38,572 nucleotides of DNA, taken from IMG/VR virus record IMGVR_UViG_3300047375_000398, positions 1 to 38,572 of that record. One strand, written 5' to 3'. The translations under genes were made by a program, and so were the position numbers. This document shows positions 1 to 20,398 of this stretch, piece by piece (the stretch's first letter is position 1; each line of letters opens with the position of its first letter). The notes under the pieces were generated by a model, which did no database searches, was not told where the DNA came from, and saw nothing but the letters and a program-made list of their open reading frames with translations. The stretch is from a virus. Taxonomy: Duplodnaviria; Caudoviricetes.

Positions 1-1038
1 TTCACCAGCTAATTCTTGACCAGCAACAAGCATACCTGCAGTTTCACCTAAAGCACCACCTGCTGCTTCTATAGCTGTAGTAGCCGCTAATCCTTTAGCC
101 GCTAAAGCAAAACCTTTTCCAGCGGCCTTACCTGCACCACCAAGTATTCTACCTCCAACACCACCACTAACTATACCAGTTAAACCTTCTATAGCACCTA
201 TAGTTAAACCTCTTCCACCAGCTTTCCACCGAAGATCACTCATTTCTTCAGGATTTTCTAGTACACTTCTTATATCATCATTGTTATCTGGATTACCACC
301 ATTTTCAATAACTTTCTGTCTAAGTAGTTCTGCAAACGTTGCTGATGTTTCCATAGCTGTCATAGCGCCTGCAAAAGCTCCTGATACCGCACCACTTCCA
401 GCGCCTATAGTTCCTGTTAAAAAAGCTAAAGGACCTCCTACGCTTCCAGCAGCTGCGCCTAATGCAGCACCACCTTTTGCGCCGGCAGCAGCACCAACAC
501 CTGCCATTGCAGCAGCTTCTTCTGAATCAAATATAGTTCCAACGGCTCCAATCATACTAGATATAACTGTTTCTACACCAAAAGTTGGGTTTTGCATTAA
601 AGCTTTAAGTCCAGCCCAAGCACCACTATCACCTTCTTCTTTATATTTATTAGTAAGCATTTGCCACTCTTGTGCTTCTTCAGACTGACCATATCTTTGT
701 GCTTCTTCAGTTGCAAGTCTCATAGCATCTAAAGATTCATCGTCTGTTTTTCCTTTAAAAACATCAAAAGTCTCATCTACAGCATCAGAAGATGCCCAAC
801 CTTGTTTTGCAGCTCTATATATATCACTAACAAAATCAACACCAAAAGTATCATTTCCAAAGAACTCTTCTAAGTATGTAGCTTTCTCTGGTACTATTTC
901 AGGTAAAGGCGGGTTTTCATCAATTACAACAGGAGGAGGTATTACTATATCATTTACATTTTCAGGTATTAAAAAATCATTTTGATCTTCCTCTTCTTCT
1001 TTTATAATTAAATTACCAAACTCATCATATTCTTCCAT
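1..1038 (-). CDS. Large internal virion/ejection protein, N-terminal part (runs off window start)
   Basis: Not in the ORF track. ATG at 1038 (MEEYDEFGNLIIKEEEEDQNDF...), frame open to base 1. Acidic/Pro N-terminus, then Gly/Ala hydrophobic segments (AAAMAGVGAAAGAKGGAALGAAAG). Follows two other candidate internal proteins. Confidence 0.7.
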   Translation of the reverse strand, partial: MEEYDEFGNLIIKEEEEDQNDFLIPENVNDIVIPPPVVIDENPPLPEIVPEKATYLEEFFGNDTFGVDFVSDIYRAAKQGWASSDAVDETFDVFKGKTDDESLDAMRLATEEAQRYGQSEEAQEWQMLTNKYKEEGDSGAWAGLKALMQNPTFGVETVISSMIGAVGTIFDSEEAAAMAGVGAAAGAKGGAALGAAAGSVGGPLAFLTGTIGAGSGAVSGAFAGAMTAMETSATFAELLRQKVIENGGNPDNNDDIRSVLENPEEMSDLRWKAGGRGLTIGAIEGLTGIVSGGVGGRILGGAGKAAGKGFALAAKGLAATTAIEAAGGALGETAGMLVAGQELAGE

Positions 1039-10879: not shown

Positions 10880-12469
10880 TTAAGCTTTAAATAACACGAA
10901 GTTATTTGCAGCTTGAGTAATAAGACATCTTTCACTTAAGTAGATAACTCTCATTTCATCAATATCAGTTGTAGGGCTAGAAGTTCCAACAGATCCTGTA
11001 ATCCAAGATTTATTTTTTCTGTTTTCAGTTTCTGAAGCTCTATAACGAATGTGTAAGAATGGTCGCTTGATATTTTGACCTAATTGCTGATCGTAAACTG
11101 TAGAAGTTCCTGCTGGTACTAATACACCTTCAACATCACCAAAACCTCCACGAGTTGACCAGTCATTTAAATATTTCCAGTCAGTTTTGTAAAAGTCATA
11201 AGATCCTCTGCGATATCCTGTAAATCCAAGATTTAATGCCATGTCAGCACTGTTGTTAAATACACCATAAGATGTACCATGAGCAACACCTGCTGCGCCT
11301 GGATATGCACCATTTTGCATAGCAAGAATGTCATCAATCTCTAAAGAAAGTTCACGATTTAAGAAAAGCATGTTTTCTTCAATAGCTCCTTGCTTGTCTA
11401 ATTGCTTAAGTACTGCATCAAAATCTGTTAATGCTCCACCACCTGCACCTGCAGCTGCTTGAGATCCAAATCCTTGATATACATTTCCACGTGCTTCAAG
11501 AGCAGCAAAGAAACCTTCAGTACCTTTAGCGTTTTGATTAGTTCCACCAACAGTGATTGAACTAGCGCCTGCAGTATAGCCTAAAGCTATTCCATTAGCA
11601 CCACCTTGTCCACCTGTTTTAAGAACACCTTCAACCATAGACATTTCGATGTAATCTTCCCAACGTAATCTATTTTCGTGTTCAGACTTCATGTACCATA
11701 AATATCCACTAGCACCATTCTCAGAAGTAACTTCAATCCAACCGATCTGAGCTGTGTCAGAACCATTGATTGCATAGTTTTCTTTTAAGATAATAGGTGA
11801 GTTTGTAAATGTAGCATAGCTAGGATTCAAAGACTCTGTAAAAGTACCTGTACCTTTAGCAAATTCTGATCCATAAGATATAGCTGTTACTCTGTTTGCC
11901 ACTAAAATACCACCGTGAGCAACGTAACATTTAATTTGAAAGTTTTGTCCTGCTACTGCAGTAACAACTCCTTTGATTACTTCGCCAGTTCCACCAACAG
12001 CTGATGTAGCTGAAGTTTGAATTTGTACCATTACTGTTTCTCCTACTCTAAAGTTTACAGGCTCAGTTTTATCTGTAGTAATTCCTGTGCTTCTTGGTTG
12101 TGCAGTTGGTACACTAAAGTTAAGTGCTGTACCTGATGCTCCTGCTACAATTGCTCCTGCAACAGCTCCACCTGGTAATGCGCCTTGATTTCCTAAAGGA
12201 ATAACATTAGCATAACGTGTGTGTAATCTACCTTGCTCAGTCCAGATTATTTGATCTGAAGTGGAAGGCATCTCCGCTGATACCATACGTAAGAAAGAAC
12301 CGATAGATCTGTTTCCATATCTTTCTACTTCTTTTTCGTATACATCAGGTAAAAATTGTTGACCCCACTGAGCAAAATTTGCATCAGTAAAATCGATATA
12401 GTTCCCAGGATACATTGTTTTGCTCTGGGTTGGTTGTAAAGCGGCTGGTATGCCTACTGTAAATGCCAT
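10880..12469 (-). CDS. Major capsid protein, 529 aa
   Basis: Motifs QQFLPDVYEKEVERYGNRS, DQIIWTEQGRLH, AQIGWIEV, GYRRGSYDFYKTDWKYLND, LSERCLITQAANNF. Follows scaffold and is followed by a terminator. Confidence 0.85.
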   Translation of the reverse strand: MAFTVGIPAALQPTQSKTMYPGNYIDFTDANFAQWGQQFLPDVYEKEVERYGNRSIGSFLRMVSAEMPSTSDQIIWTEQGRLHTRYANVIPLGNQGALPGGAVAGAIVAGASGTALNFSVPTAQPRSTGITTDKTEPVNFRVGETVMVQIQTSATSAVGGTGEVIKGVVTAVAGQNFQIKCYVAHGGILVANRVTAISYGSEFAKGTGTFTESLNPSYATFTNSPIILKENYAINGSDTAQIGWIEVTSENGASGYLWYMKSEHENRLRWEDYIEMSMVEGVLKTGGQGGANGIALGYTAGASSITVGGTNQNAKGTEGFFAALEARGNVYQGFGSQAAAGAGGGALTDFDAVLKQLDKQGAIEENMLFLNRELSLEIDDILAMQNGAYPGAAGVAHGTSYGVFNNSADMALNLGFTGYRRGSYDFYKTDWKYLNDWSTRGGFGDVEGVLVPAGTSTVYDQQLGQNIKRPFLHIRYRASETENRKNKSWITGSVGTSSPTTDIDEMRVIYLSERCLITQAANNFVLFKA

Positions 12470-12491: not shown

Positions 12492-13754
12492 TTATTTCCA
12501 TTTAACTCGCAATTTAGAAGAGTCATTTCCAGAAACAACTTTAACTTTTTGACCATTTGAATTTACAACACTAGAATTATCAACTCTAGGTGACATATCT
12601 ATATTTTTAGAAGCTTTAGCTTGATCTTTTATGGCATCGGCACGGCCTTGCTCATAAAAATGATTAGCTATTTTATCTGCATTTCGTCCGGCAAATAAAG
12701 CTTTGTGATAGCCTTTGGCATCTGAAATAGTGCCATCTTTGCCTATAAATTCATTAGCAAAATTTTTAATATCAGATTGAAACTCTTTAACTTGTAAAGG
12801 ATTTTCTACTTTAAAACGATATTTATTTTTTCCTACGCTAAAATCAAAACCTTTGAAATCGTCAGAAAAAACATTAGTTGTTTTATTTAAAAAATCTTTT
12901 TGTAAATTTTCACTTTCTTTTATTAAATCTTGTTGTTCATTATAATACTCATAAGCTTTTTTATATTCAGGATCAATATCATTTTGCTTTCTTAACTTAA
13001 GATCAGCATAATATTTTTCCTTACTTGTTTTAAAATGATTTTGAGCATTAAATAATTCTTCTTTAAAAGCTAATTGTTTAGCTTTAACATCTGACGGATC
13101 TTCCGTCTCTGCATCATAACCAAAATTTTTATTAAGCATAAACTCAATATCATCTTGATTTAAATGCGGTTTTGTACTCTTGTAATATTCACGCATTAAA
13201 GTAGTGTTGTCATACTTGCTAATGTCTCTATTAAGATTAACATAATCTTCCAAAGATCCACCAGTTTCTTCCATGAATTTAACTAATTTATCTACGTTTT
13301 CAGGAAGCATTTGTTTTTCAGCTTCCTTAATTTCTTCTTTTTGTTCTGTAGTTATAGAAGGTTCTTCTTTTTTAACTACAACATCTTCATCTTCTTTAAT
13401 TAATTCTAAAGGAGAATCATTTTGTTCTAATACTTTTTCTTCAGTTTGAACGGTTTTATTTTCTTCACTGGGTTGCTCCCGTACCTCTTTGTCCACTTCT
13501 TTGCTATCTCCGGTTCGTTCGCCCACAGATACCTCCTTTGTTTCTCGCTCTTGAATGGCATTTGTTTCTTCTTTTTGTACAGGAGGTTTATCCAGGTTAA
13601 TTTTATAAACACCATCGTCTTGTAAACCATATTCAGATGCTACCTCCCCGGTTTCTACTGCTTGGTCTAATACCGCAGCTTCTTGTTCTTGTTTTGTAGG
13701 TGCTGGACTATCGTCTGCAACAACCTTAACTTGTACTTTTTCTTGTTCTTCCAT
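12492..13754 (-). CDS. Capsid scaffolding protein, 420 aa
   Basis: Very acidic, disordered N-terminus. Motifs LPENVDKLVKFMEETGGSLEDYVNLNRD and IANHFYEQGRADA. Lies between portal and capsid genes. Confidence 0.7.
   Translation of the reverse strand: MEEQEKVQVKVVADDSPAPTKQEQEAAVLDQAVETGEVASEYGLQDDGVYKINLDKPPVQKEETNAIQERETKEVSVGERTGDSKEVDKEVREQPSEENKTVQTEEKVLEQNDSPLELIKEDEDVVVKKEEPSITTEQKEEIKEAEKQMLPENVDKLVKFMEETGGSLEDYVNLNRDISKYDNTTLMREYYKSTKPHLNQDDIEFMLNKNFGYDAETEDPSDVKAKQLAFKEELFNAQNHFKTSKEKYYADLKLRKQNDIDPEYKKAYEYYNEQQDLIKESENLQKDFLNKTTNVFSDDFKGFDFSVGKNKYRFKVENPLQVKEFQSDIKNFANEFIGKDGTISDAKGYHKALFAGRNADKIANHFYEQGRADAIKDQAKASKNIDMSPRVDNSSVVNSNGQKVKVVSGNDSSKLRVKWK
13427..13561 (-). CDS. Overprinted small basic protein in +1 frame of scaffold gene, 44 aa
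   Basis: MPFKSEKQRRYLWANEPEIAKKWTKRYGSNPVKKIKPFKLKKKY. ATG at 13561 after an A-rich tract, local GC rise. Resembles a small protein I recall as a standalone gene in other phages. Confidence 0.55.
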   Translation of the reverse strand: MPFKSEKQRRYLWANEPEIAKKWTKRYGSNPVKKIKPFKLKKKY

Positions 13755-13784: not shown

Positions 13785-16214
13785 TTATTTTGGCGAAAAT
13801 CTACTTAAATCAATACCACCTAAAACATCATTTCCTTTTGATTCAAAAGATTTTGAGGGCTTACCGGATGAAGGTGGCCCAGAAACAGATTTAGTAGATG
13901 CTTTTACATTTTCTCTTTCCATTGCTCCTTGATTATTAACTTGAGTTAATTCTTTTTGAGCTTGTAATTCTAATTGTTTTAATTGAACATTTAATTCATA
14001 TTCATACTGCATTAACTCTCTTTTTGTTTGAGCTTCTACTTCTAATTTTTTTATTTCAAATTCAATATCAGCTTGTCTATATTGTATTTTAGATTCTGTT
14101 TTAATTTGTTCAGCTTGAGCTTTTGCTTCTTCTATTTGAACTTGAGCAGCGCCTTGAGCTTCAGCTTGAGCTACACTAGCAGCTTGAGCCATTTGCTGAT
14201 CCATTTGTTGTTTTCTTACTCTTTTTATTTTAAGTAATTGATTAGCAAGTTTTAAATTTTTAACTTCTCTAATATCTATAGCATCTTCTAAATTAATGCT
14301 ATCTTTAGATAAAGCTATTTGAATGTTTGCTTCTAATAAAGATTTTTCTTCTTCATCGGGCATTAATTCTAAAAATATACCAAAATCATGTAGATGTAAG
14401 TTTTTTATTTCTTCTAATGAGCCTACAGAAAACTGACCTAATGCTCCTATAAAAGCTTCTTTTGTTGGATGAAATTCTAAAACATCTTTAAACCTTAAAC
14501 ATATAGCTTCAGCTAAAGCTAATGTTATATATAGACTACTATCTAATATATGTCTTGTAGCTGTATTACTGTTTGCTGCTGCAAGTTTCTGTACACCAAC
14601 TAACGCATTAGGGTCTGGATCAGAACCATCTCTAGCTTCGTTTAATCCAGTTACATCCCTCATCATTTGAATGTAATTATTGTAAGCACCTATTAAAACT
14701 TGTATTTGATTGCCGGTACTTCCTGGAAGCTCTTGAATAGGAACTTTACCAGGATTTTGATCTCCTTCAACTGTCAATGATCTACCTATGATAGAACCTG
14801 TTTGAAAATACATGTTTAATGCTTCTTGAGCATTATAATTTGTACCATTACCCAAATCAACTTCTGCAATACCATCTGCATCTAAAAATACACCTGATGG
14901 AACCATTCTTTGAATAGCTTGTTGAAGTTTTAAATGTGTAAGCTGTATTAAATCAGCATAAGGCGTCATTTTAGATACCAAAGATGTTATATTACCTTTG
15001 TATATTCTTGGAGCTGATACCGTGTAGTTCATTAATACTTTGTTAGTATTAGAACTAGGTCTTATCATATTTGTAGCCTTATTCCATTCAAGTAAAATGT
15101 TACTACCTAATATATAAGCTCCTTCATATATTACCTCTCTAGCTTGAGCTACTCTTTCAAATCTTGTTCTTTTATCTTGAGGTGGATTAAATGTATCATC
15201 TTTTAATATAGCTTTGTCGGCACCTGTAGATGTTTCTTTAATTTTATAAACATTATTTTCCCAAGTTTTCCAATTAAAGTATAATACAGTTAATGTATTA
15301 TTATTATCTATTTCACTGTTTCTGTTTCTGTTAAAATGATCTTTATTGTAATTAACCCAGTTAGAACCTTTTTTAACAAACTCTGCTATTTCTTCATTTG
15401 GTAAATCTGGAAATTGTTTTTTAAGTTCATTTACCGGTATTCTTTTTATTTCACCAAAATAATAACAATCTTCAAAATTAGGGTCATCTGTATAAGACCA
15501 AACTAAATTAGCTGGATCTACATAGTCCACTTTTATACCATCAGTATTATTAAAAGTATTTTTAACAGCACCTATTCCTAAAACCGCTAAATCATAATCA
15601 ACTCGTTTTTTTATTTGAGGATATTTGTTTGATAAAAAAACATTGTTAATTGCTTGCTCTTCTGCTATTTCTATACCTTGCTTATATCCTAATTGCATGT
15701 AAAGCTCTAGCTCTTCAGTGTTTTGAGGTAAATCTTCTTCTGGAACATTTCTAGCATTAACACCTAATTGAGCTTCTACTTGTTTTAACATTTCTTGAGC
15801 ATTTATATCTCTAGTAATATCATTAACAAATTGAGTTCTTTTTCCTGTTGATATAGGATCTTGTGCAAAAGCCTTTATGTCATACAGTCTATCTTGCATA
15901 CCATTAACAACTATGTCTACAAACTTAGGTATTATAGGTACAGGTTTCCAGTCTAAATTTAAATAAGATAAATCACCATTTGTAGCAAATTCATCTTTAT
16001 ATTTTTTAATAGATTGTTCACCTCTTGCATATAATCTTAGTCTATTAAACTCTTCGCTTACTTGATAATACATGCCTGGGTTATTATCTCTATTAAACCA
16101 TTCTTGTTCAATAGCTCTTCCAACCGATAGACCATATTCAGAAGACATTTTTTCTTCATCTGAGACAGCTTGACTCGGAAATTGTGTAGGAAGTTGTCCT
16201 GTTGTTATTGCCAT
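13785..16214 (-). CDS. Portal protein, 809 aa
   Basis: Motifs RLRLYARGEQS, LSYLNLDWKPVPIIPKFVDIVVNG, YVDPANLVWSY, RDVTGLNEARDGS, plus a coiled-coil C-terminus. Immediately after terminase. Confidence 0.85.
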   Translation of the reverse strand: MAITTGQLPTQFPSQAVSDEEKMSSEYGLSVGRAIEQEWFNRDNNPGMYYQVSEEFNRLRLYARGEQSIKKYKDEFATNGDLSYLNLDWKPVPIIPKFVDIVVNGMQDRLYDIKAFAQDPISTGKRTQFVNDITRDINAQEMLKQVEAQLGVNARNVPEEDLPQNTEELELYMQLGYKQGIEIAEEQAINNVFLSNKYPQIKKRVDYDLAVLGIGAVKNTFNNTDGIKVDYVDPANLVWSYTDDPNFEDCYYFGEIKRIPVNELKKQFPDLPNEEIAEFVKKGSNWVNYNKDHFNRNRNSEIDNNNTLTVLYFNWKTWENNVYKIKETSTGADKAILKDDTFNPPQDKRTRFERVAQAREVIYEGAYILGSNILLEWNKATNMIRPSSNTNKVLMNYTVSAPRIYKGNITSLVSKMTPYADLIQLTHLKLQQAIQRMVPSGVFLDADGIAEVDLGNGTNYNAQEALNMYFQTGSIIGRSLTVEGDQNPGKVPIQELPGSTGNQIQVLIGAYNNYIQMMRDVTGLNEARDGSDPDPNALVGVQKLAAANSNTATRHILDSSLYITLALAEAICLRFKDVLEFHPTKEAFIGALGQFSVGSLEEIKNLHLHDFGIFLELMPDEEEKSLLEANIQIALSKDSINLEDAIDIREVKNLKLANQLLKIKRVRKQQMDQQMAQAASVAQAEAQGAAQVQIEEAKAQAEQIKTESKIQYRQADIEFEIKKLEVEAQTKRELMQYEYELNVQLKQLELQAQKELTQVNNQGAMERENVKASTKSVSGPPSSGKPSKSFESKGNDVLGGIDLSRFSPK

Positions 16215-16216
16215 AT

Positions 16217-18448
16217 TTATTGTATTATCTTACTCATTGATCCATCGTTTTTATATTTAGCAAAACGAAAATCTATTTTTTTATTTGTTCTTTCCATATT
16301 AGGCCTATACATGTGTTTTCTACAAGCCATGATTGCAAGTCCACTACTTATTGATGCATCATGAGATGTTCTTCGAGATATATCAAATCTTGCCCAGTCT
16401 TCTAATGTTTTTTGAAAATACATACTACCATGATTTTCTTCTTTACGTCCTACATAATCCTCTATGTAAGACTCAATAGCAGCGGCATGAGCTTGTTTTA
16501 TATCTTCAGATGTATTTGGTATACCTCCTAATTCTATTTCTGTTTTAGATAAATTACCTAAGAGTTTATCAGGTCTATTCATTGAATAACCTCTATAACC
16601 TCTTCTTTTTAAGTGATATAATAATCTTGGTTTATTATTTTCTGCAAGTATTGGCATACCGTAAAATACTAATGCCATTAATACTTCTTCAAAAAATATT
16701 TCTGCTGTCTGTGGTCGTGCTATATATTCTAAGAAAAACTTAGTATTAGGCACATCGTTTACCATAGAAAAAGTAGTTAATCCGTGAAGAGCACCATTAG
16801 ACCCACCACCCCCAACAGTACCGCTGATATCATAACTATCGCATCCGAAGGCTCCGAAGCCATCATTACCAGGATATTTAATACCATTTTTTGTAATTAT
16901 ATTATTTTGTATATTATCTGGTGGTATCCAAGATATTTTAAACCTACCGTTTTTAGTAGGTACCCATATAACTTTAGTATCTTTTATACCATTTTGCCAA
17001 GCAAAAGTTCCACGAACAACATAACCTTTAATAGCCATCTCTTCGTTAAAATCTATTTGCTCGTATATTTTAGTTAGATTAAATAATGAATTAACTGTTT
17101 CATCTCTAAAAGCGTGCTTTTCAGATCTTGGAAATTGTCTGTAATATTCATTTAAAGCATCGCTGTCTCTTTTTAATCCTTCTACTTCATTTTCCCAATG
17201 ATCAATGACTCCCGTAAAAATTTTTTCTCCATCAATTCCTTCAATCGGTTCTGATGGTGTGTCGAAGACAGGATATCCGTACTTGTCAATAAACCCTTCG
17301 TATCCCCACTCCATAGGTATGAACAAAGAATATAATCCACTTGTAGTCTGGCCATTGCGGTTTCTATTTGTGACATTTGAATTATAAAATAATTTTTTAA
17401 AGTTATCTCCACCTTTGTTTAAAGCATTAGATGTTGATCCCATCATGCATTTACCAACTACTCTGGCACCGAGCCTGAGGCACGTTTTTGTGACCCTCCA
17501 GTTGTTGAGTATGTTGTCCGGCCTCTCCCATTTACCCGATTCATCATGGACGAGGAGTTGTAACTTCTCCCCATCGTACGAGTTGTCTCCCGTGTTCTTC
17601 CAGTCGATCGTGGTATCGAGCCCCTGCCCAAATTCCTCCTGACTATAGGTTTCTTTAATGGCGTTTCTGGTAAGTCTTCTTGACGGTATTTTATAGGAAA
17701 GCTCCGTCTTCGGTCGTTCCATCCCATCCTGTATTGGTTTGAAAAAAAATGGATAGTTGATTGATATGGGTACAATCTTGTCTGTAAACATCTTCTTTGC
17801 ATCTGCTCCAGTTTTAGATAAAACCCCAAATCTAGAGTCCTTGGAAGTTGTTGCCAAGTTAACAGTCTCTGAGGATGCCATGAAGCTAAAGCCAGACCGT
17901 CTATTCTTGAGGTAGCACATTCCATAAGATCTCTTATCTGCCTTGCATGCCTCCCAAAAGTAATAAAAGATTCTGTTTGCCTGCCTAAAATCTGGTGCTC
18001 CCACGTCGATCTTTGTCCAAGAGAGATAGACATAGTGCGATCCTGTAATGTAGTTCGCGGAACCGTTGCACATGAACCAATACCCATCATTACGATAATT
18101 AAACTCACTATCAATATATTTGTAGTATTTTTCTTTAATATCTTCGGGATAGGATTGAAAGTCATATATGCTTTTTATTTTATTTAAAGATTCAGGTTTG
18201 TTTTTTATTTTAAAAAATTGATCTGACTGCTTTAAGTCTTCTCCATCTATTGCATCTGGAGTTTTAGGTATTGCCACCTTAAGACCTTGTATTTCATATA
18301 TATCACCTATTGTACCGTCTTTACTTATTACAACACAGTCTAAATCTTCATTGTATCCATATTCAAACTTCTTATGTTTATTAAGATGCTTAATTTTTTT
18401 ATCAGATAAATGAGTATTGTGTATTTTATAAAGCGTTTGTTTGTACAT
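16217..18448 (-). CDS. terL: Terminase large subunit, 743 aa
   Basis: Walker A-like LKNRRSGFS, Walker B LLVHDESGKW, coupling motif MGST, nuclease motifs FGCDSYD, LAENNK and HDASISSGLA. Confidence 0.9.
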   Translation of the reverse strand: MYKQTLYKIHNTHLSDKKIKHLNKHKKFEYGYNEDLDCVVISKDGTIGDIYEIQGLKVAIPKTPDAIDGEDLKQSDQFFKIKNKPESLNKIKSIYDFQSYPEDIKEKYYKYIDSEFNYRNDGYWFMCNGSANYITGSHYVYLSWTKIDVGAPDFRQANRIFYYFWEACKADKRSYGMCYLKNRRSGFSFMASSETVNLATTSKDSRFGVLSKTGADAKKMFTDKIVPISINYPFFFKPIQDGMERPKTELSYKIPSRRLTRNAIKETYSQEEFGQGLDTTIDWKNTGDNSYDGEKLQLLVHDESGKWERPDNILNNWRVTKTCLRLGARVVGKCMMGSTSNALNKGGDNFKKLFYNSNVTNRNRNGQTTSGLYSLFIPMEWGYEGFIDKYGYPVFDTPSEPIEGIDGEKIFTGVIDHWENEVEGLKRDSDALNEYYRQFPRSEKHAFRDETVNSLFNLTKIYEQIDFNEEMAIKGYVVRGTFAWQNGIKDTKVIWVPTKNGRFKISWIPPDNIQNNIITKNGIKYPGNDGFGAFGCDSYDISGTVGGGGSNGALHGLTTFSMVNDVPNTKFFLEYIARPQTAEIFFEEVLMALVFYGMPILAENNKPRLLYHLKRRGYRGYSMNRPDKLLGNLSKTEIELGGIPNTSEDIKQAHAAAIESYIEDYVGRKEENHGSMYFQKTLEDWARFDISRRTSHDASISSGLAIMACRKHMYRPNMERTNKKIDFRFAKYKNDGSMSKIIQ
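17458..18165 (-). CDS. Overprinted predicted lipoprotein in +1 frame inside terL, 235 aa
   Basis: 235 stop-free codons in an AT-rich genome. N-terminus has a basic region (KILKK), hydrophobic core (ILIVSLIIVMM) and lipobox IGS-C32. Coincides with a GC-rich island in terL. Confidence 0.55.
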   Translation of the reverse strand: MTFNPIPKILKKNTTNILIVSLIIVMMGIGSCATVPRTTLQDRTMSISLGQRSTWEHQILGRQTESFITFGRHARQIRDLMECATSRIDGLALASWHPQRLLTWQQLPRTLDLGFYLKLEQMQRRCLQTRLYPYQSTIHFFSNQYRMGWNDRRRSFPIKYRQEDLPETPLKKPIVRRNLGRGSIPRSTGRTRETTRTMGRSYNSSSMMNRVNGRGRTTYSTTGGSQKRASGSVPE

Positions 18449-18690
18449 TATTTGATTCTATTTTCAACACCTAAAAAAGTATGAGATTCTTTGCTAGATT
18501 TTTTATCAGATAACTCTTCAATTTTTTCTATAATTTTTAATGAATCTTCTATTGCAACCCACTTAGCTTGAGCTGCTGTTTTTGCTTTTTCAGGATCTAA
18601 TTCAGATAAATCAATTTTTTGTTTAATAACTTTTTCAAGTTCAATCAATGCTTTTTCCGCTGCTTCTATTATTCTTTTTCTTCGGTCCAT
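18448..18690 (-). CDS. Small helical protein, possible terminase small subunit, 80 aa
   Basis: Stop overlaps the terL ATG. Charged helical sequence. Function inferred from position only. Confidence 0.5.
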   Translation of the reverse strand: MDRRKRIIEAAEKALIELEKVIKQKIDLSELDPEKAKTAAQAKWVAIEDSLKIIEKIEELSDKKSSKESHTFLGVENRIK

Positions 18691-19243
18691 AATTAATAGT
18701 TATATGATTTGATAAAATTCTATAAAGTTTTTGACCTTCAATATTAAATTCATATTCAGAGTTAGGTGTAAACCCTACCACGTCTCCTATAGACACTCCT
18801 AATGAACTTAATTGGCTGTTTGTGTATGCTAGCTCCCCTTTTAAATTTTCGTCTGTATCAAGCGCCCATTTATCTTTTATTTTTATAGGCTTTACAAAGC
18901 AATATCCAGGTAGTGCAACCCACTTATTATTTTTTTTACATGCAAAAACTTGATCTGTTCCTACAGTATATTTGTCTTCATCAAGATAACTAGCAGAATT
19001 ACGTTCTTGCTGTTGTTGGTTTAACCATCTTCTAAAAACATTATGATGAACAATTATTTCATCCCCTACTTCTACTTCTGTTTTTATACCAGCTGGAACA
19101 CTAACAACTTTACCAATACGATTAACAAACATGTAATCTCTTTCTGTAATCTCTGTATTAACAACTAATTTTTTGTCATCAACATCAACTACGTTATTGT
19201 AACGATTTTCAGTAGATATAATATAATCAAAAAGTGCCTGCAT
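18641..19243 (-). CDS. groES: GroES-like co-chaperonin, probably two tandem GroES-type domains, 200 aa
   Basis: GKVVSVP...VEVGDEIIVHHN and GYCFVKP...GVSIGDVVGF...IEGQKLYRI match GroES strand patterns. Confidence 0.6.
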   Translation of the reverse strand: MQALFDYIISTENRYNNVVDVDDKKLVVNTEITERDYMFVNRIGKVVSVPAGIKTEVEVGDEIIVHHNVFRRWLNQQQQERNSASYLDEDKYTVGTDQVFACKKNNKWVALPGYCFVKPIKIKDKWALDTDENLKGELAYTNSQLSSLGVSIGDVVGFTPNSEYEFNIEGQKLYRILSNHITINYGPKKKNNRSSGKSID

Positions 19244-19464
19244 TAATAATCTAAGTTATATTCAACAGATACTGCCATGTTAGAATTAAAATGTTTCCAC
19301 GGTAGTACTTCTTTGTTTTTAGTTATAAATATTTTAAAAGAACCATCTTCTTCTAGTATATCTGAAATAGTATGTCCTCCATAAACTTCTTGTCCTACAG
19401 AGTAATGCATTGCTTCGTTTTTGTAGTCAGTACCAATACTGATCTTACGTATTAATTTTGCCAT
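19243..19464 (-). CDS. Hypothetical phage protein, 73 aa
   Basis: LIRKISIGTDYKNEAMHYSVGQEVYGGHTI. Stop overlaps the start of the GroES-like gene. Confidence 0.7.
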   Translation of the reverse strand: MAKLIRKISIGTDYKNEAMHYSVGQEVYGGHTISDILEEDGSFKIFITKNKEVLPWKHFNSNMAVSVEYNLDY

Positions 19465-19474
19465 TTAATTTAAT

Positions 19475-19819
19475 TTAGTATGTCCATATGGTCATTGGCG
19501 GAGCGCCATCATAACCTATACCTACATGAACAAAGTTGTTTTTTCTACTTATACCTATTCTTTTAAAACCTACTTCAATTGCAGCTTTAACTAACCTATA
19601 AGTAGCTTCACCTCCTGAACAAGCCATATCTACAGCTGCACCATAAGTATGCTCACCAGGTTTAGACTTACGCGCCTCTATTGGATGTTGAGGTGATCTG
19701 TATGTTGATGTTAATGTAATTGGATATCCATATGCTTCTCTAAGATCATCTAGCATCTCAAGAAGCTTAGGGTCCATTTTGTCAAAGTTATTAAATTCAG
19801 ATTCATTAAAATGTTTCAT
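19475..19819 (-). CDS. Peptidase M15A family (Zn peptidase) putative endolysin, 114 aa
   Basis: MDPKLLEMLDDLR, ITLTSTYR, EHTYGAAVD (H-x6-D) and FVHV zinc-ligand motifs. Confidence 0.8.
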   Translation of the reverse strand: MKHFNESEFNNFDKMDPKLLEMLDDLREAYGYPITLTSTYRSPQHPIEARKSKPGEHTYGAAVDMACSGGEATYRLVKAAIEVGFKRIGISRKNNFVHVGIGYDGAPPMTIWTY

Positions 19820-19823
19820 TGTA

Positions 19824-19976
19824 TTATTCTTTTGATTTCTTTAATATCATTAGTATTGTGTATCCTATTGATAACAATAAAACTACTGTCTGTAGTACTG
19901 TATTTATTTCAGGTATTACTGAAAATATCATTGCTCCTACGTTTATTCCAAAGATCTTAAAATCTTGTTCTATCAT
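19824..19976 (-). CDS. Small membrane protein, putative holin, 50 aa (not in ORF track)
   Basis: MIEQDFKIFGINVGAMIFSVIPEINTVLQTVVLLLSIGYTILMILKKSKE: two hydrophobic segments and a basic C-terminus. ATGA overlap with upstream gene, directly before the endolysin. Confidence 0.65.
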   Translation of the reverse strand: MIEQDFKIFGINVGAMIFSVIPEINTVLQTVVLLLSIGYTILMILKKSKE

Positions 19977-20398
19977 TGTTTATGTTTATTATTTCCAAAT
20001 ACCTTCTCGACGCCGCGAGAACCAAAATAGCCTCCTATGACTATAGTTAATAATGAAGTCACTGATTCCAGTGAATAGCCGGCGTACCACCCTATAACAT
20101 ATGATATTGTTAAAAATACAAGAACCAATGGTCGGACGTTGGACGCAAGCCAGTTACCGCTTCGAGCATCTGCTACCCATCTTTTGGTTGTGCCATCAAT
20201 TTCGGCTCTTTCTATTCTTAACTTTTCTAGTGCAACTTGTTTATCGCCTTCTGAAAGCTGAGAGTTACCACTAATTAGTTCTGATATTACATTTCCCGGC
20301 AATATTGCGTCGCCGACCATTCCTAGAATACTTGGTGCCTTTTCAATTAAAAATCGTCCGACACCTGTATCTTTAAAAGGTTTCTTTTTTTCACTCAT
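19973..20398 (-). CDS. Holin-like membrane protein (GTA holin 3TM-like), 141 aa
   Basis: RWVADARSGNWLASNVRPL followed by two TM helices, then GGYFGSRGVEK. Confidence 0.7.
   Translation of the reverse strand: MSEKKKPFKDTGVGRFLIEKAPSILGMVGDAILPGNVISELISGNSQLSEGDKQVALEKLRIERAEIDGTTKRWVADARSGNWLASNVRPLVLVFLTISYVIGWYAGYSLESVTSLLTIVIGGYFGSRGVEKVFGNNKHKQ

What the first reader, a model, noticed from the sequence alone, without database searches (positions are those of the whole stretch)
13427..13561. Small basic protein overprinted in the disordered N-terminus of the scaffold gene
Seen: +1-frame ATG at 13561 after AAAAAGAAGAAACAA, encoding MPFKSEKQRRYLWANEPEIAKKWTKRYGSNPVKKIKPFKLKKKY, with a local GC rise at about 13460-13560. 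From memory, MPFKS.KQRR(Y/W)...N.PEIA..W is a widespread standalone small phage protein. If so, the scaffold's unconstrained acidic linker has absorbed or overgrown a real gene. Together with the terL case, this points to repeated +1 overprinting in the head module. A basic peptide made with the scaffold could be a DNA-binding core protein (inference).
Basis: partly seen in the sequence, partly recalled or inferred. Interest (0 to 1): 0.75.

Follow-up and report, generated by a model that had tools for sequence, protein, structure and literature searches.

The report
Mobile gene nested inside phage genes
A widespread, unannotated 44-residue phage gene lies hidden one base out of frame inside the likely capsid-scaffold gene of this marine phage, and inside a different giant virion gene in its relatives (including a cultured phage), one copy per genome; its basic product is likely packed into the head with the DNA.

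Summary
Confirmed and extended. The 44-aa +1 ORF (13561..13427, minus) is intact in 79 of 79 evaluable scaffold homologs, in several alleles. It sets the wobble pattern of the overlap (changes silent in +1 versus silent in host 59:22, against 21:83 upstream) and carries a Bacteroidia-type A-rich, unstructured start. It belongs to a large family (3,388 clusters; weak phrog_1375 match) that is free-standing in head modules of unrelated phages and caps other proteins at residue 1. New: a sister clade, including all 68 cultured Elemovirus records, nests the same cassette in +1 inside the giant last structural gene instead; 39 of 45 genomes searched hold exactly one copy and none holds two. Scaffolds without it are about 48 aa shorter. 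So the small gene is the older frame and was likely captured as a dual-coding insert, not overprinted de novo. Most likely function: a basic internal head protein that binds DNA (inferred, about 50%). Translation is not shown. The terL +1 ORF is a separate case. Three earlier scan notes on T4-like head cargo share short words with the peptide, but none describes this nesting.

The parts
13427..13561 (-). Nested +1 ORF, 44 aa, net charge +12 (15 K/R, 3 D/E); MPFKS family, weak match to phrog_1375
13475..13561 (-). Conserved 29-codon core: N-terminal Met-Pro-Phe arm plus predicted helix 6-15 / helix 17-27 hairpin
   Evidence: pLDDT 80-90 over residues 1-30
13430..13474 (-). Lysine-rich, variable, predicted disordered tail
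   Evidence: pLDDT 53-58
13562..13576 (-). Likely internal translation start region: A at -6 and -11 to -15, no Shine-Dalgarno, unstructured; the window itself has C at -3, where most relatives have A
   Evidence: determinants from PMC6847099 passages
13428..13562 (-). Host-frame reading of the cassette (codons 65-109), an acidic, likely disordered linker; the same D/N-A-I/V-Q segment occurs in giant-gene hosts
12492..13754 (-). Host gene, 420 aa, likely capsid scaffold (between portal and major capsid gene; homologs annotated 'structural protein' in Elemo gp27 and, by position, phi38:1 gp092)
13785..16214 (-). Portal gene (context)
   Evidence: (phrog_6547)
10880..12469 (-). Major capsid gene (context; tree marker)
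   Evidence: phrog_13704; Calle_1 homolog annotated major capsid protein
1..1038 (-). Start of the giant last structural gene, cut by the window end; the alternative host of the cassette in the sister clade
   Evidence: match to G002 giant protein, E 1e-26

Best explanation
The ORF is a conserved gene under purifying selection, nested in the +1 frame of the likely scaffold gene; it is likely translated from its own A-rich internal start into a small basic protein that likely enters the head and binds the packaged DNA. Shown: conservation, selection on the +1 frame, start-signal pattern, family membership, two alternative host genes, one copy per genome. Inferred: (1) Ribosomes start internally on the late mRNA, using the SD-less Bacteroidia signal. 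(2) Residues 1-29 fold as a helical hairpin that needs a free N-terminus, and the K-rich tail neutralises DNA, as lysines of T4 internal proteins do. (3) History: a free-standing head-module gene was captured when a neighbouring gene read through it. E/K-rich codons read one base later give K/R, so the host gains only an acidic linker and the overlap is cheap. The dual-coding cassette then moved once between the giant virion gene and the scaffold gene, and its alleles were swapped between lineages by recombination. I put 'real translated gene' at about 0.93, 'captured older gene' at about 0.85 and 'internal DNA-binding head protein' at about 0.5.
For: Intact in 79 of 79 evaluable scaffold homologs. 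In loci chosen by scaffold similarity, isolated changes silent in +1 versus silent in host are 59:22 in the overlap and 21:83 in the 30 codons upstream (Fisher p 5e-13, changes not independent; omega for +1 about 0.05). Host third-position entropy is 0.35 in the overlap against 1.05 in the C-terminal domain. A at -3, -6 and -13 occurs in 91/89/84% of 114 scaffold leaders and 87/74/91% of 23 giant-gene leaders, against 46/45/29% and 35/36/35% at other +1 ATGs; folding energy is -0.5/-0.8 versus -4.2/-4.4 kcal/mol. These positions match PMC6847099. A Cys pair replaces Leu12/Ala20 together: 24 of 24 alleles with W-x-C also have the first Cys, and 111 of 136 have neither. Free copies lie in head modules of unrelated phages. 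117 of the 120 best long homologs carry the module at residue 1, and one such gene lies two genes before a phrog_4287 DNA ejection gene. 39 of 45 genomes hold one copy and none holds two. 0 of 74 complete short scaffolds carry it; 10 of those genomes, Elemo and Manatee Spring have it nested in the giant gene and G011 has it free. Five scaffold-type genomes show no trace in their giant genes. Median scaffold length is 414 aa with (106) and 366 aa without (63), and scaffold-nested phages form one capsid clade, support 0.99. Conservation across phages with unrelated capsids and on Acidobacteria chromosomes favours a universal partner such as DNA.
Against: There is no proteomic or ribosome-profiling evidence of translation or of virion location, and no DNA-binding test. 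No fold or sequence match to a solved protein. phi38:1, Panino and one 100%-complete relative (G009) have no detectable copy, so it is not universal or essential. The K-rich tail partly follows from E/K-rich host codons. The upstream A-richness partly follows from acidic host codons, and the controls were not matched for that. In Streptomyces phage FlowerPower the homolog lies between a peptidase and a holin gene, and Acidobacteria copies are solo chromosomal genes in varied contexts, neither of which points to a capsid role. The window's own -3 base is C. The direction of the move between host genes is unresolved: the node joining Elemo to the giant-gene clade has support 0.42.
Confidence: 0.5

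Rival explanations
1. The peptide is a real gene but acts on a conserved host target (ejected with the DNA or made late), for example as a counter-defence or host-takeover factor like T4 IPI*. Allele swapping would reflect an arms race.
For: Sister phages carry different alleles: window versus L007 is 91% identical upstream, 87% downstream and 86 of 144 aligned positions in the cassette. Alleles recur across the tree and across host genes (26 of 28 residues shared between the Elemo giant-gene and L193 scaffold copies; up to 89% DNA identity between giant and scaffold copies). The invariant free N-terminus suits a binding pocket. T4 internal proteins are diverse defence proteins (PMC3012670 passages).
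Against: The core is conserved across phages of unrelated hosts and on bacterial chromosomes, and selection is strongly purifying. Free copies sit in head modules, not among early genes.
Confidence: 0.2
2. The 29-residue core is a head-targeting or docking module like the T4 capsid-targeting sequence. In its nested form the acidic host-frame segment would bind the basic peptide and carry it into the prohead, so the cassette would encode both cargo and carrier.
For: The module is at residue 1 in 117 of 120 long homologs whose remainder is hypervariable. Both host genes encode likely internal head proteins. Median charge is +12 for the peptide and -9 for the host segment. Changes altering both frames are five times rarer per site than changes altering only the peptide.
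Against: The family spans phages with unrelated capsid families (phrog_13704, 371, 9953, 267) and non-phage chromosomal loci. Free copies work without the host segment. The host-frame constraint may only reflect which changes the peptide tolerates.
Confidence: 0.17
3. The cassette is expressed by programmed frameshifting, as a peptide-scaffold fusion (-1 at the K-rich tail) or a host-peptide fusion (+1).
For: One contig (L110) has the peptide fused in frame to the scaffold core. Two database proteins (P0006, P0123) look like mixed-frame products.
Against: Slippery heptamers occur in only 18 of 129 scaffold and 1 of 23 giant cassettes, and none in the window. The ATG and a start-like leader are conserved. 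L110 is explained by one small indel and is the only such case among the loci examined.
Confidence: 0.06
4. The ORF arose de novo by overprinting of the scaffold, or is an untranslated shadow of a conserved host motif.
For: The host frame also shows some constraint (NN/NS 0.19). A 44-codon open +1 stretch arises by chance at about 0.05.
Against: Homologs exist with no overlapping ORF and with different codons: Ser5 is TCA in 41 of 49 free copies and AGC in 138 of 152 nested ones. The wobble pattern follows the +1 frame. The segment is absent from the shorter scaffolds.
Confidence: 0.03

Closest known systems
phrog_1375 (PHROGs v4, unknown function)
   Same: The window peptide matches at E 0.0015 (2e-4 for residues 1-36) and 13 of 29 diverse alleles match.
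   Different: The match is weak and partial (profile 17-44 of 70). The family has no function and the nested copies are not annotated in the records seen.
Nested phage genes: phiX174 E in D and B in A, lambda Rz1 in Rz, leviviral lysis genes (recalled, not from a call)
   Same: A small gene lies wholly inside another gene in a shifted frame with its own start.
   Different: As I recall them, those are treated as overprinted or fixed in one host gene. Here the nested gene is the older and wider family, it occurs in two unrelated host genes in sister clades at one copy per genome, and it also occurs free and as an N-terminal cap.
T4 internal proteins and capsid-targeting sequence (PMC3012670, passages)
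   Same: Small head-associated proteins, an N-terminal conserved module on variable cargo, and lysines in contact with packaged DNA.
   Different: No sequence or fold link was shown. The module here is about 29 residues, predicted to fold, and also works alone; cleavage was not tested.
phiX174 J protein (recalled)
   Same: A very small basic protein encoded in the morphogenesis region and packaged with the genome.
   Different: J belongs to an ssDNA microvirus, is not nested, and no homology was tested.
Cellulophaga phage phi38:1, Elemovirus, 'group 2' marine Flavobacteriaceae phages (PMC5332604, passages)
   Same: Same terL-portal-scaffold-capsid order; capsid identity 35% to phi38:1 and 38-39% to Elemo phages.
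   Different: phi38:1 and Panino have no detectable copy, Elemo has it in gp18, and the window's clade has it in the scaffold.

Membership tests
Functional nested (dual-coding) gene | ORF kept intact across divergent relatives | tested here: met
   79 of 79 evaluable scaffold homologs at 54-100% identity
Functional nested (dual-coding) gene | Purifying selection on the alternative frame | tested here: met
   59:22 vs 21:83, omega about 0.05; coupled Cys pair
Functional nested (dual-coding) gene | Own initiation signal | tested here: met
   A at -3/-6/-11 to -13 and low structure versus control ATGs, in both host genes; controls not matched for acidic context
Functional nested (dual-coding) gene | Protein or ribosome footprints detected | not testable with these tools
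   Only RNA contigs were available; they cannot show frame
De novo overprinted gene | Nested frame is younger and narrower in range than the host frame | tested here: not met
   Free homologs in Streptomyces, cyanobacterial and other phages and in Acidobacteria; host segment absent from short scaffolds
phrog_1375 | Profile match | tested here: met
   E 0.0015 and 2e-4; 13 of 29 alleles, best E 4e-6; weak and partial
DUF3008 (PF11450) | Pfam match | tested here: not met
   No hit in 29 alleles at E 0.5; only an Atlas neighbour at 0.84 with 15% of members
T4-type internal protein with capsid-targeting sequence | Conserved N-terminal module on variable proteins | tested here: met
   117 of the 120 best long homologs
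T4-type internal protein with capsid-targeting sequence | Encapsidated via the module and cut by the prohead protease | not testable with these tools
   Needs virion proteomics and reporter fusions
Known DNA-binding fold | Structural match to a solved domain | tested here: inconclusive
   Best Z 2.2, no Foldseek hit at E 0.001
Programmed -1 frameshift | Conserved slippery heptamer in phase | tested here: not met
   18 of 129 and 1 of 23; none in the window
Capsid scaffold (host gene) | Homology to a characterised scaffold | tested here: inconclusive
   No PHROG, Pfam or PDB hit; position and acidity only
phi38:1/Elemo-like flavobacterial podoviruses | Homologous head genes in the same order | tested here: met
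   family-level taxonomy was not tested

The most novel reading that the evidence does not exclude
The 135-nt stretch is a portable two-frame cassette. In +1 it makes a basic head protein; in frame 0 it makes an acidic docking linker that carries that protein into the prohead, so it works in any internal head protein it lands in (scaffold or ejection protein). Its 29-residue core is a cross-phylum capsid-loading or DNA-anchoring module that other phages fuse to the N-terminus of variable ejected cargo.
Probability: 0.15. Interest if true: 0.88.

Novelty: new variant of a known kind. Interest (0 to 1): 0.7.

Why it matters
It shows a route to gene overlap other than de novo overprinting: capture of an old gene whose off-frame reading is a harmless acidic linker, followed by a move of the dual-coding unit between unrelated genes. 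It also shows that a gene kept by a large lineage of marine and freshwater flavobacterial phages is missed by annotation (about 2,000 IMG/VR stretches match one nested-form pattern). Because all 68 cultured Elemovirus records carry it, the function of a family of 3,388 clusters with no known role becomes testable in a phage-host pair that already exists.

Tried and rejected
Pfam gives no hit for the peptide. PDB sequence hits are summed beta-propeller repeats with per-repeat E above 100, so chance. Foldseek against BFVD returns only unnamed or uncharacterised proteins, none at E 0.001; PDB fold searches give nothing. The ESM Atlas returns hypothetical viral proteins only. A homodimer prediction could not be run because the queue was full, so there is no verdict. 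Giant hosts have no PHROG hit and only DUF3293/DUF6861 in Pfam, so their ejection role rests on gene position. A conserved frameshift signal was rejected. The 67-aa upstream start was rejected. The first selection test used motif-chosen loci, so it was redone on scaffold-chosen loci; that script failed before its C-terminal controls, so the upstream 30 codons are its only control. All 224 distinct nested cassettes are in +1 and none in +2, but two scans were built on nested-form codons, so this count is biased. RNA-library contigs cover the ORF but cannot show strand, level or frame. Ten paper searches found no description of this nesting. The primary Elemo paper did not appear in the library, PMC7077304 has no 'elemo' passage, and no supplements were read; these could bear on novelty. 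Sequence, relatives and word look-ups of earlier scan notes found nothing on the nesting.

Full report
Observation. The ORF 13561..13427 (minus) encodes the stated 44-aa peptide, in the +1 frame of a 420-aa gene between portal (phrog_6547) and major capsid gene (phrog_13704). The window is a 58%-complete virus record. Its capsid protein is 35% identical to Cellulophaga phage phi38:1 and 38-39% to Elemo phages, with the same head gene order. phi38:1 belongs to 'group 2' marine Flavobacteriaceae phages (PMC5332604, passages). 'Scaffold' is inferred from position and acidity.

Conservation and selection. Of 80 loci fetched by scaffold similarity, 71 match the peptide pattern at the same place. 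Of the other 9, 8 carry an intact divergent allele starting MPY and one is truncated. In those 79 loci (54 distinct sequences over codons 1-30), isolated changes silent in +1 but not in the host number 59, against 22 of the opposite kind and 11 that alter both. In the 30 codons upstream the figures are 21, 83 and 24 (Fisher p 5e-13, changes not independent). A motif-selected set of 41 gives 82% peptide versus 63% host identity, and host third-position entropy of 0.35 against 1.05 downstream (partly circular). In 136 distinct alleles a Cys in helix 1 and a Cys at the start of helix 2 go together: 24 have both, 111 have neither, and the one exception to the W-x-C pattern still has a second Cys. 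This may trace to a single origin, but the pair survives loops of very different length. AlphaFold predicts helices 6-15 and 17-27 with a low-confidence tail.

Expression. Leaders of 114 scaffold and 23 giant-gene cassettes have A at -3, -6 and -11 to -13 far above other +1 ATGs in the same genes (-13: 84% and 91% vs 29% and 35%), almost no Shine-Dalgarno, and little structure. PMC6847099 (abstract and passages) reports A at -3, -6, -12 and -13 as positive determinants in Flavobacterium johnsoniae; PMC13000457 (abstract) states that Bacteroidia rely on upstream adenines. Part of the A-richness follows from acidic host codons. Slippery heptamers are not conserved. Translation itself is not shown.

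The family. There are 240 homologs of 24-77 aa, 1,465 longer ones and 3,388 clusters at 50% identity. Of 80 loci, I examined 66 (14 were contigs already): 16 nested, 1 fused to the scaffold (L110), 14 free and short, 35 at the N-terminus of long proteins. 117 of the 120 best long homologs have the module at residue 1; one such gene lies two genes before a phrog_4287 DNA ejection gene. Free copies lie between terminase or portal and capsid genes in several unrelated phages, near lysis genes in Streptomyces phage FlowerPower, and as solo genes on Acidobacteriaceae chromosomes, 2 of 10 inspected beside Ku/UDG or ATP-ligase/SRAP genes.

Two host genes. A pattern scan gave 120 loci: 92 scaffold hosts, 18 other hosts (8 of them ORFs over 1,000 codons) and 10 without a covering host ORF of 120 codons. 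The giant host is the last gene of the structural operon of the same phage lineage. Five such records hold one copy each, and the four with a scaffold lack it there. A scaffold from that group fetched 80 relatives; none of the 74 complete ones carries the family ORF. Across 45 long records (18 short-scaffold, 18 scaffold-cassette, 5 other, 4 GenBank), 39 have exactly one match and none has two. The misses are G009 (complete), G015, G018 and G020 (partial), Panino and phi38:1. Of the 30 matches inspected, 14 are in giant ORFs, 14 in scaffolds, 1 is free and 1 partly overlapped. Five near-complete scaffold-type genomes show neither frame of the cassette in their giant genes. Elemovirus elemoF carries it unannotated inside gp18, and 68 Elemo records match at 99% or more over residues 1-29. 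On a tree of 104 capsid proteins rooted on phi38:1, scaffold-nested phages form one clade (0.99) and the giant-gene group another (1.0), with Elemo and Panino attached to it only weakly (0.42). Scaffolds with the cassette have median length 414 aa, those without 366 aa. Alleles do not follow the tree, and the window and its sister L007 differ mainly in the cassette.

Direction. The peptide occurs without any host frame and with other codons, while the host segment occurs only with the peptide, so the peptide is the older frame. Possible intermediates were seen: G011 has a free copy starting a few bases after the giant gene's stop, and G045 and L464 have a short upstream ORF that reads through the core and stops. 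These are single cases, and G011 keeps the nested-type Ser codon, so it may be a secondary release.

Function. I commit to a basic internal head protein that binds packaged DNA (0.5). The reasons are head-module location, net charge +12, a core conserved across unrelated capsids and hosts, and the T4 precedent of internal-protein lysines contacting DNA (PMC3012670, passages). Rivals are a host-directed effector (0.2), a loading tag with a carrier linker (0.17), a frameshift fusion (0.06) and de novo or shadow ORF (0.03). No structural match helps, and the complex prediction could not be run.

terL. The 235-aa +1 ORF at 18165..17458 is open for 220 or more codons in 28 of 32 relatives at 83% or more TerL identity, cut to about 138 codons in 4, and broken up in most of the 11 more distant ones, four to five of which keep 151-187 open codons. 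Its substitutions follow TerL (88 host-silent vs 14 +1-silent). It is a separate and probably younger overlap.

Novelty. Nested phage genes are known (recalled examples: phiX174 E and B, lambda Rz1). Ten searches of the held library found no account of this one. What is new is a captured, older gene kept as a dual-coding cassette in two unrelated host genes at one copy per genome. Verdict: real, a new variant of a known kind, interest 0.7.

Noticed in passing
window 17458-18165 (-): A 235-aa +1 ORF inside terL, kept open in 28 of 32 close relatives but without amino-acid-level selection in my test; it has a hydrophobic stretch ending in G-S-C that could be a lipoprotein signal (recalled motif, untested). 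No Pfam or PHROG hit.
   Followed up: partly
L110:4859-6044: The peptide runs in frame into the scaffold core (347 aa) while the host N-terminal ORF stops after 76 aa; one small indel explains it, natural or an assembly error.
   Followed up: partly
L418:5740-5907 (G011): A free-standing copy starts a few bases after the stop of the giant gene, keeps the nested-type Ser codon, and shares its tail with giant-nested alleles of G001 and G043.
   Followed up: partly
L417:7501-7954 (G045) and L464: An upstream ORF of about 127 aa reads through the first 27-29 codons of the peptide in the host frame and stops: a partial overlap with a third host gene in another kind of phage.
   Followed up: partly
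L470-L497: Many soil Acidobacteriaceae genomes carry a solo chromosomal member of the family with a Shine-Dalgarno leader in varied contexts, two beside DNA-repair genes.
   Followed up: partly
P0127-P0241; L099, L114, L116, L136: Long proteins capped by the module share a GG-containing motif right after it and often a C-terminal GGLAxLW motif around a hypervariable middle, in the ejection-gene region of other marine podoviruses; a candidate cargo system.
   Followed up: no
window 13431, run X10 record 3: A contig from an oligo-dT RNA library ends in what I recall as a cDNA adaptor exactly at the A-run in the peptide's tail, which fits priming on minus-strand RNA; weak and not strand-proof.
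   Followed up: no
L430, L453, L177, L226, L577: The module caps 130-240-aa proteins on other large contigs, including one in a Prochlorococcus assembly; possibly head cargo of large phages.
   Followed up: no
window 18641-20398 (-): A GroES-like gene (phrog_13932), an M15 endolysin and a holin (phrog_3427) lie just upstream of the head module.
   Followed up: no
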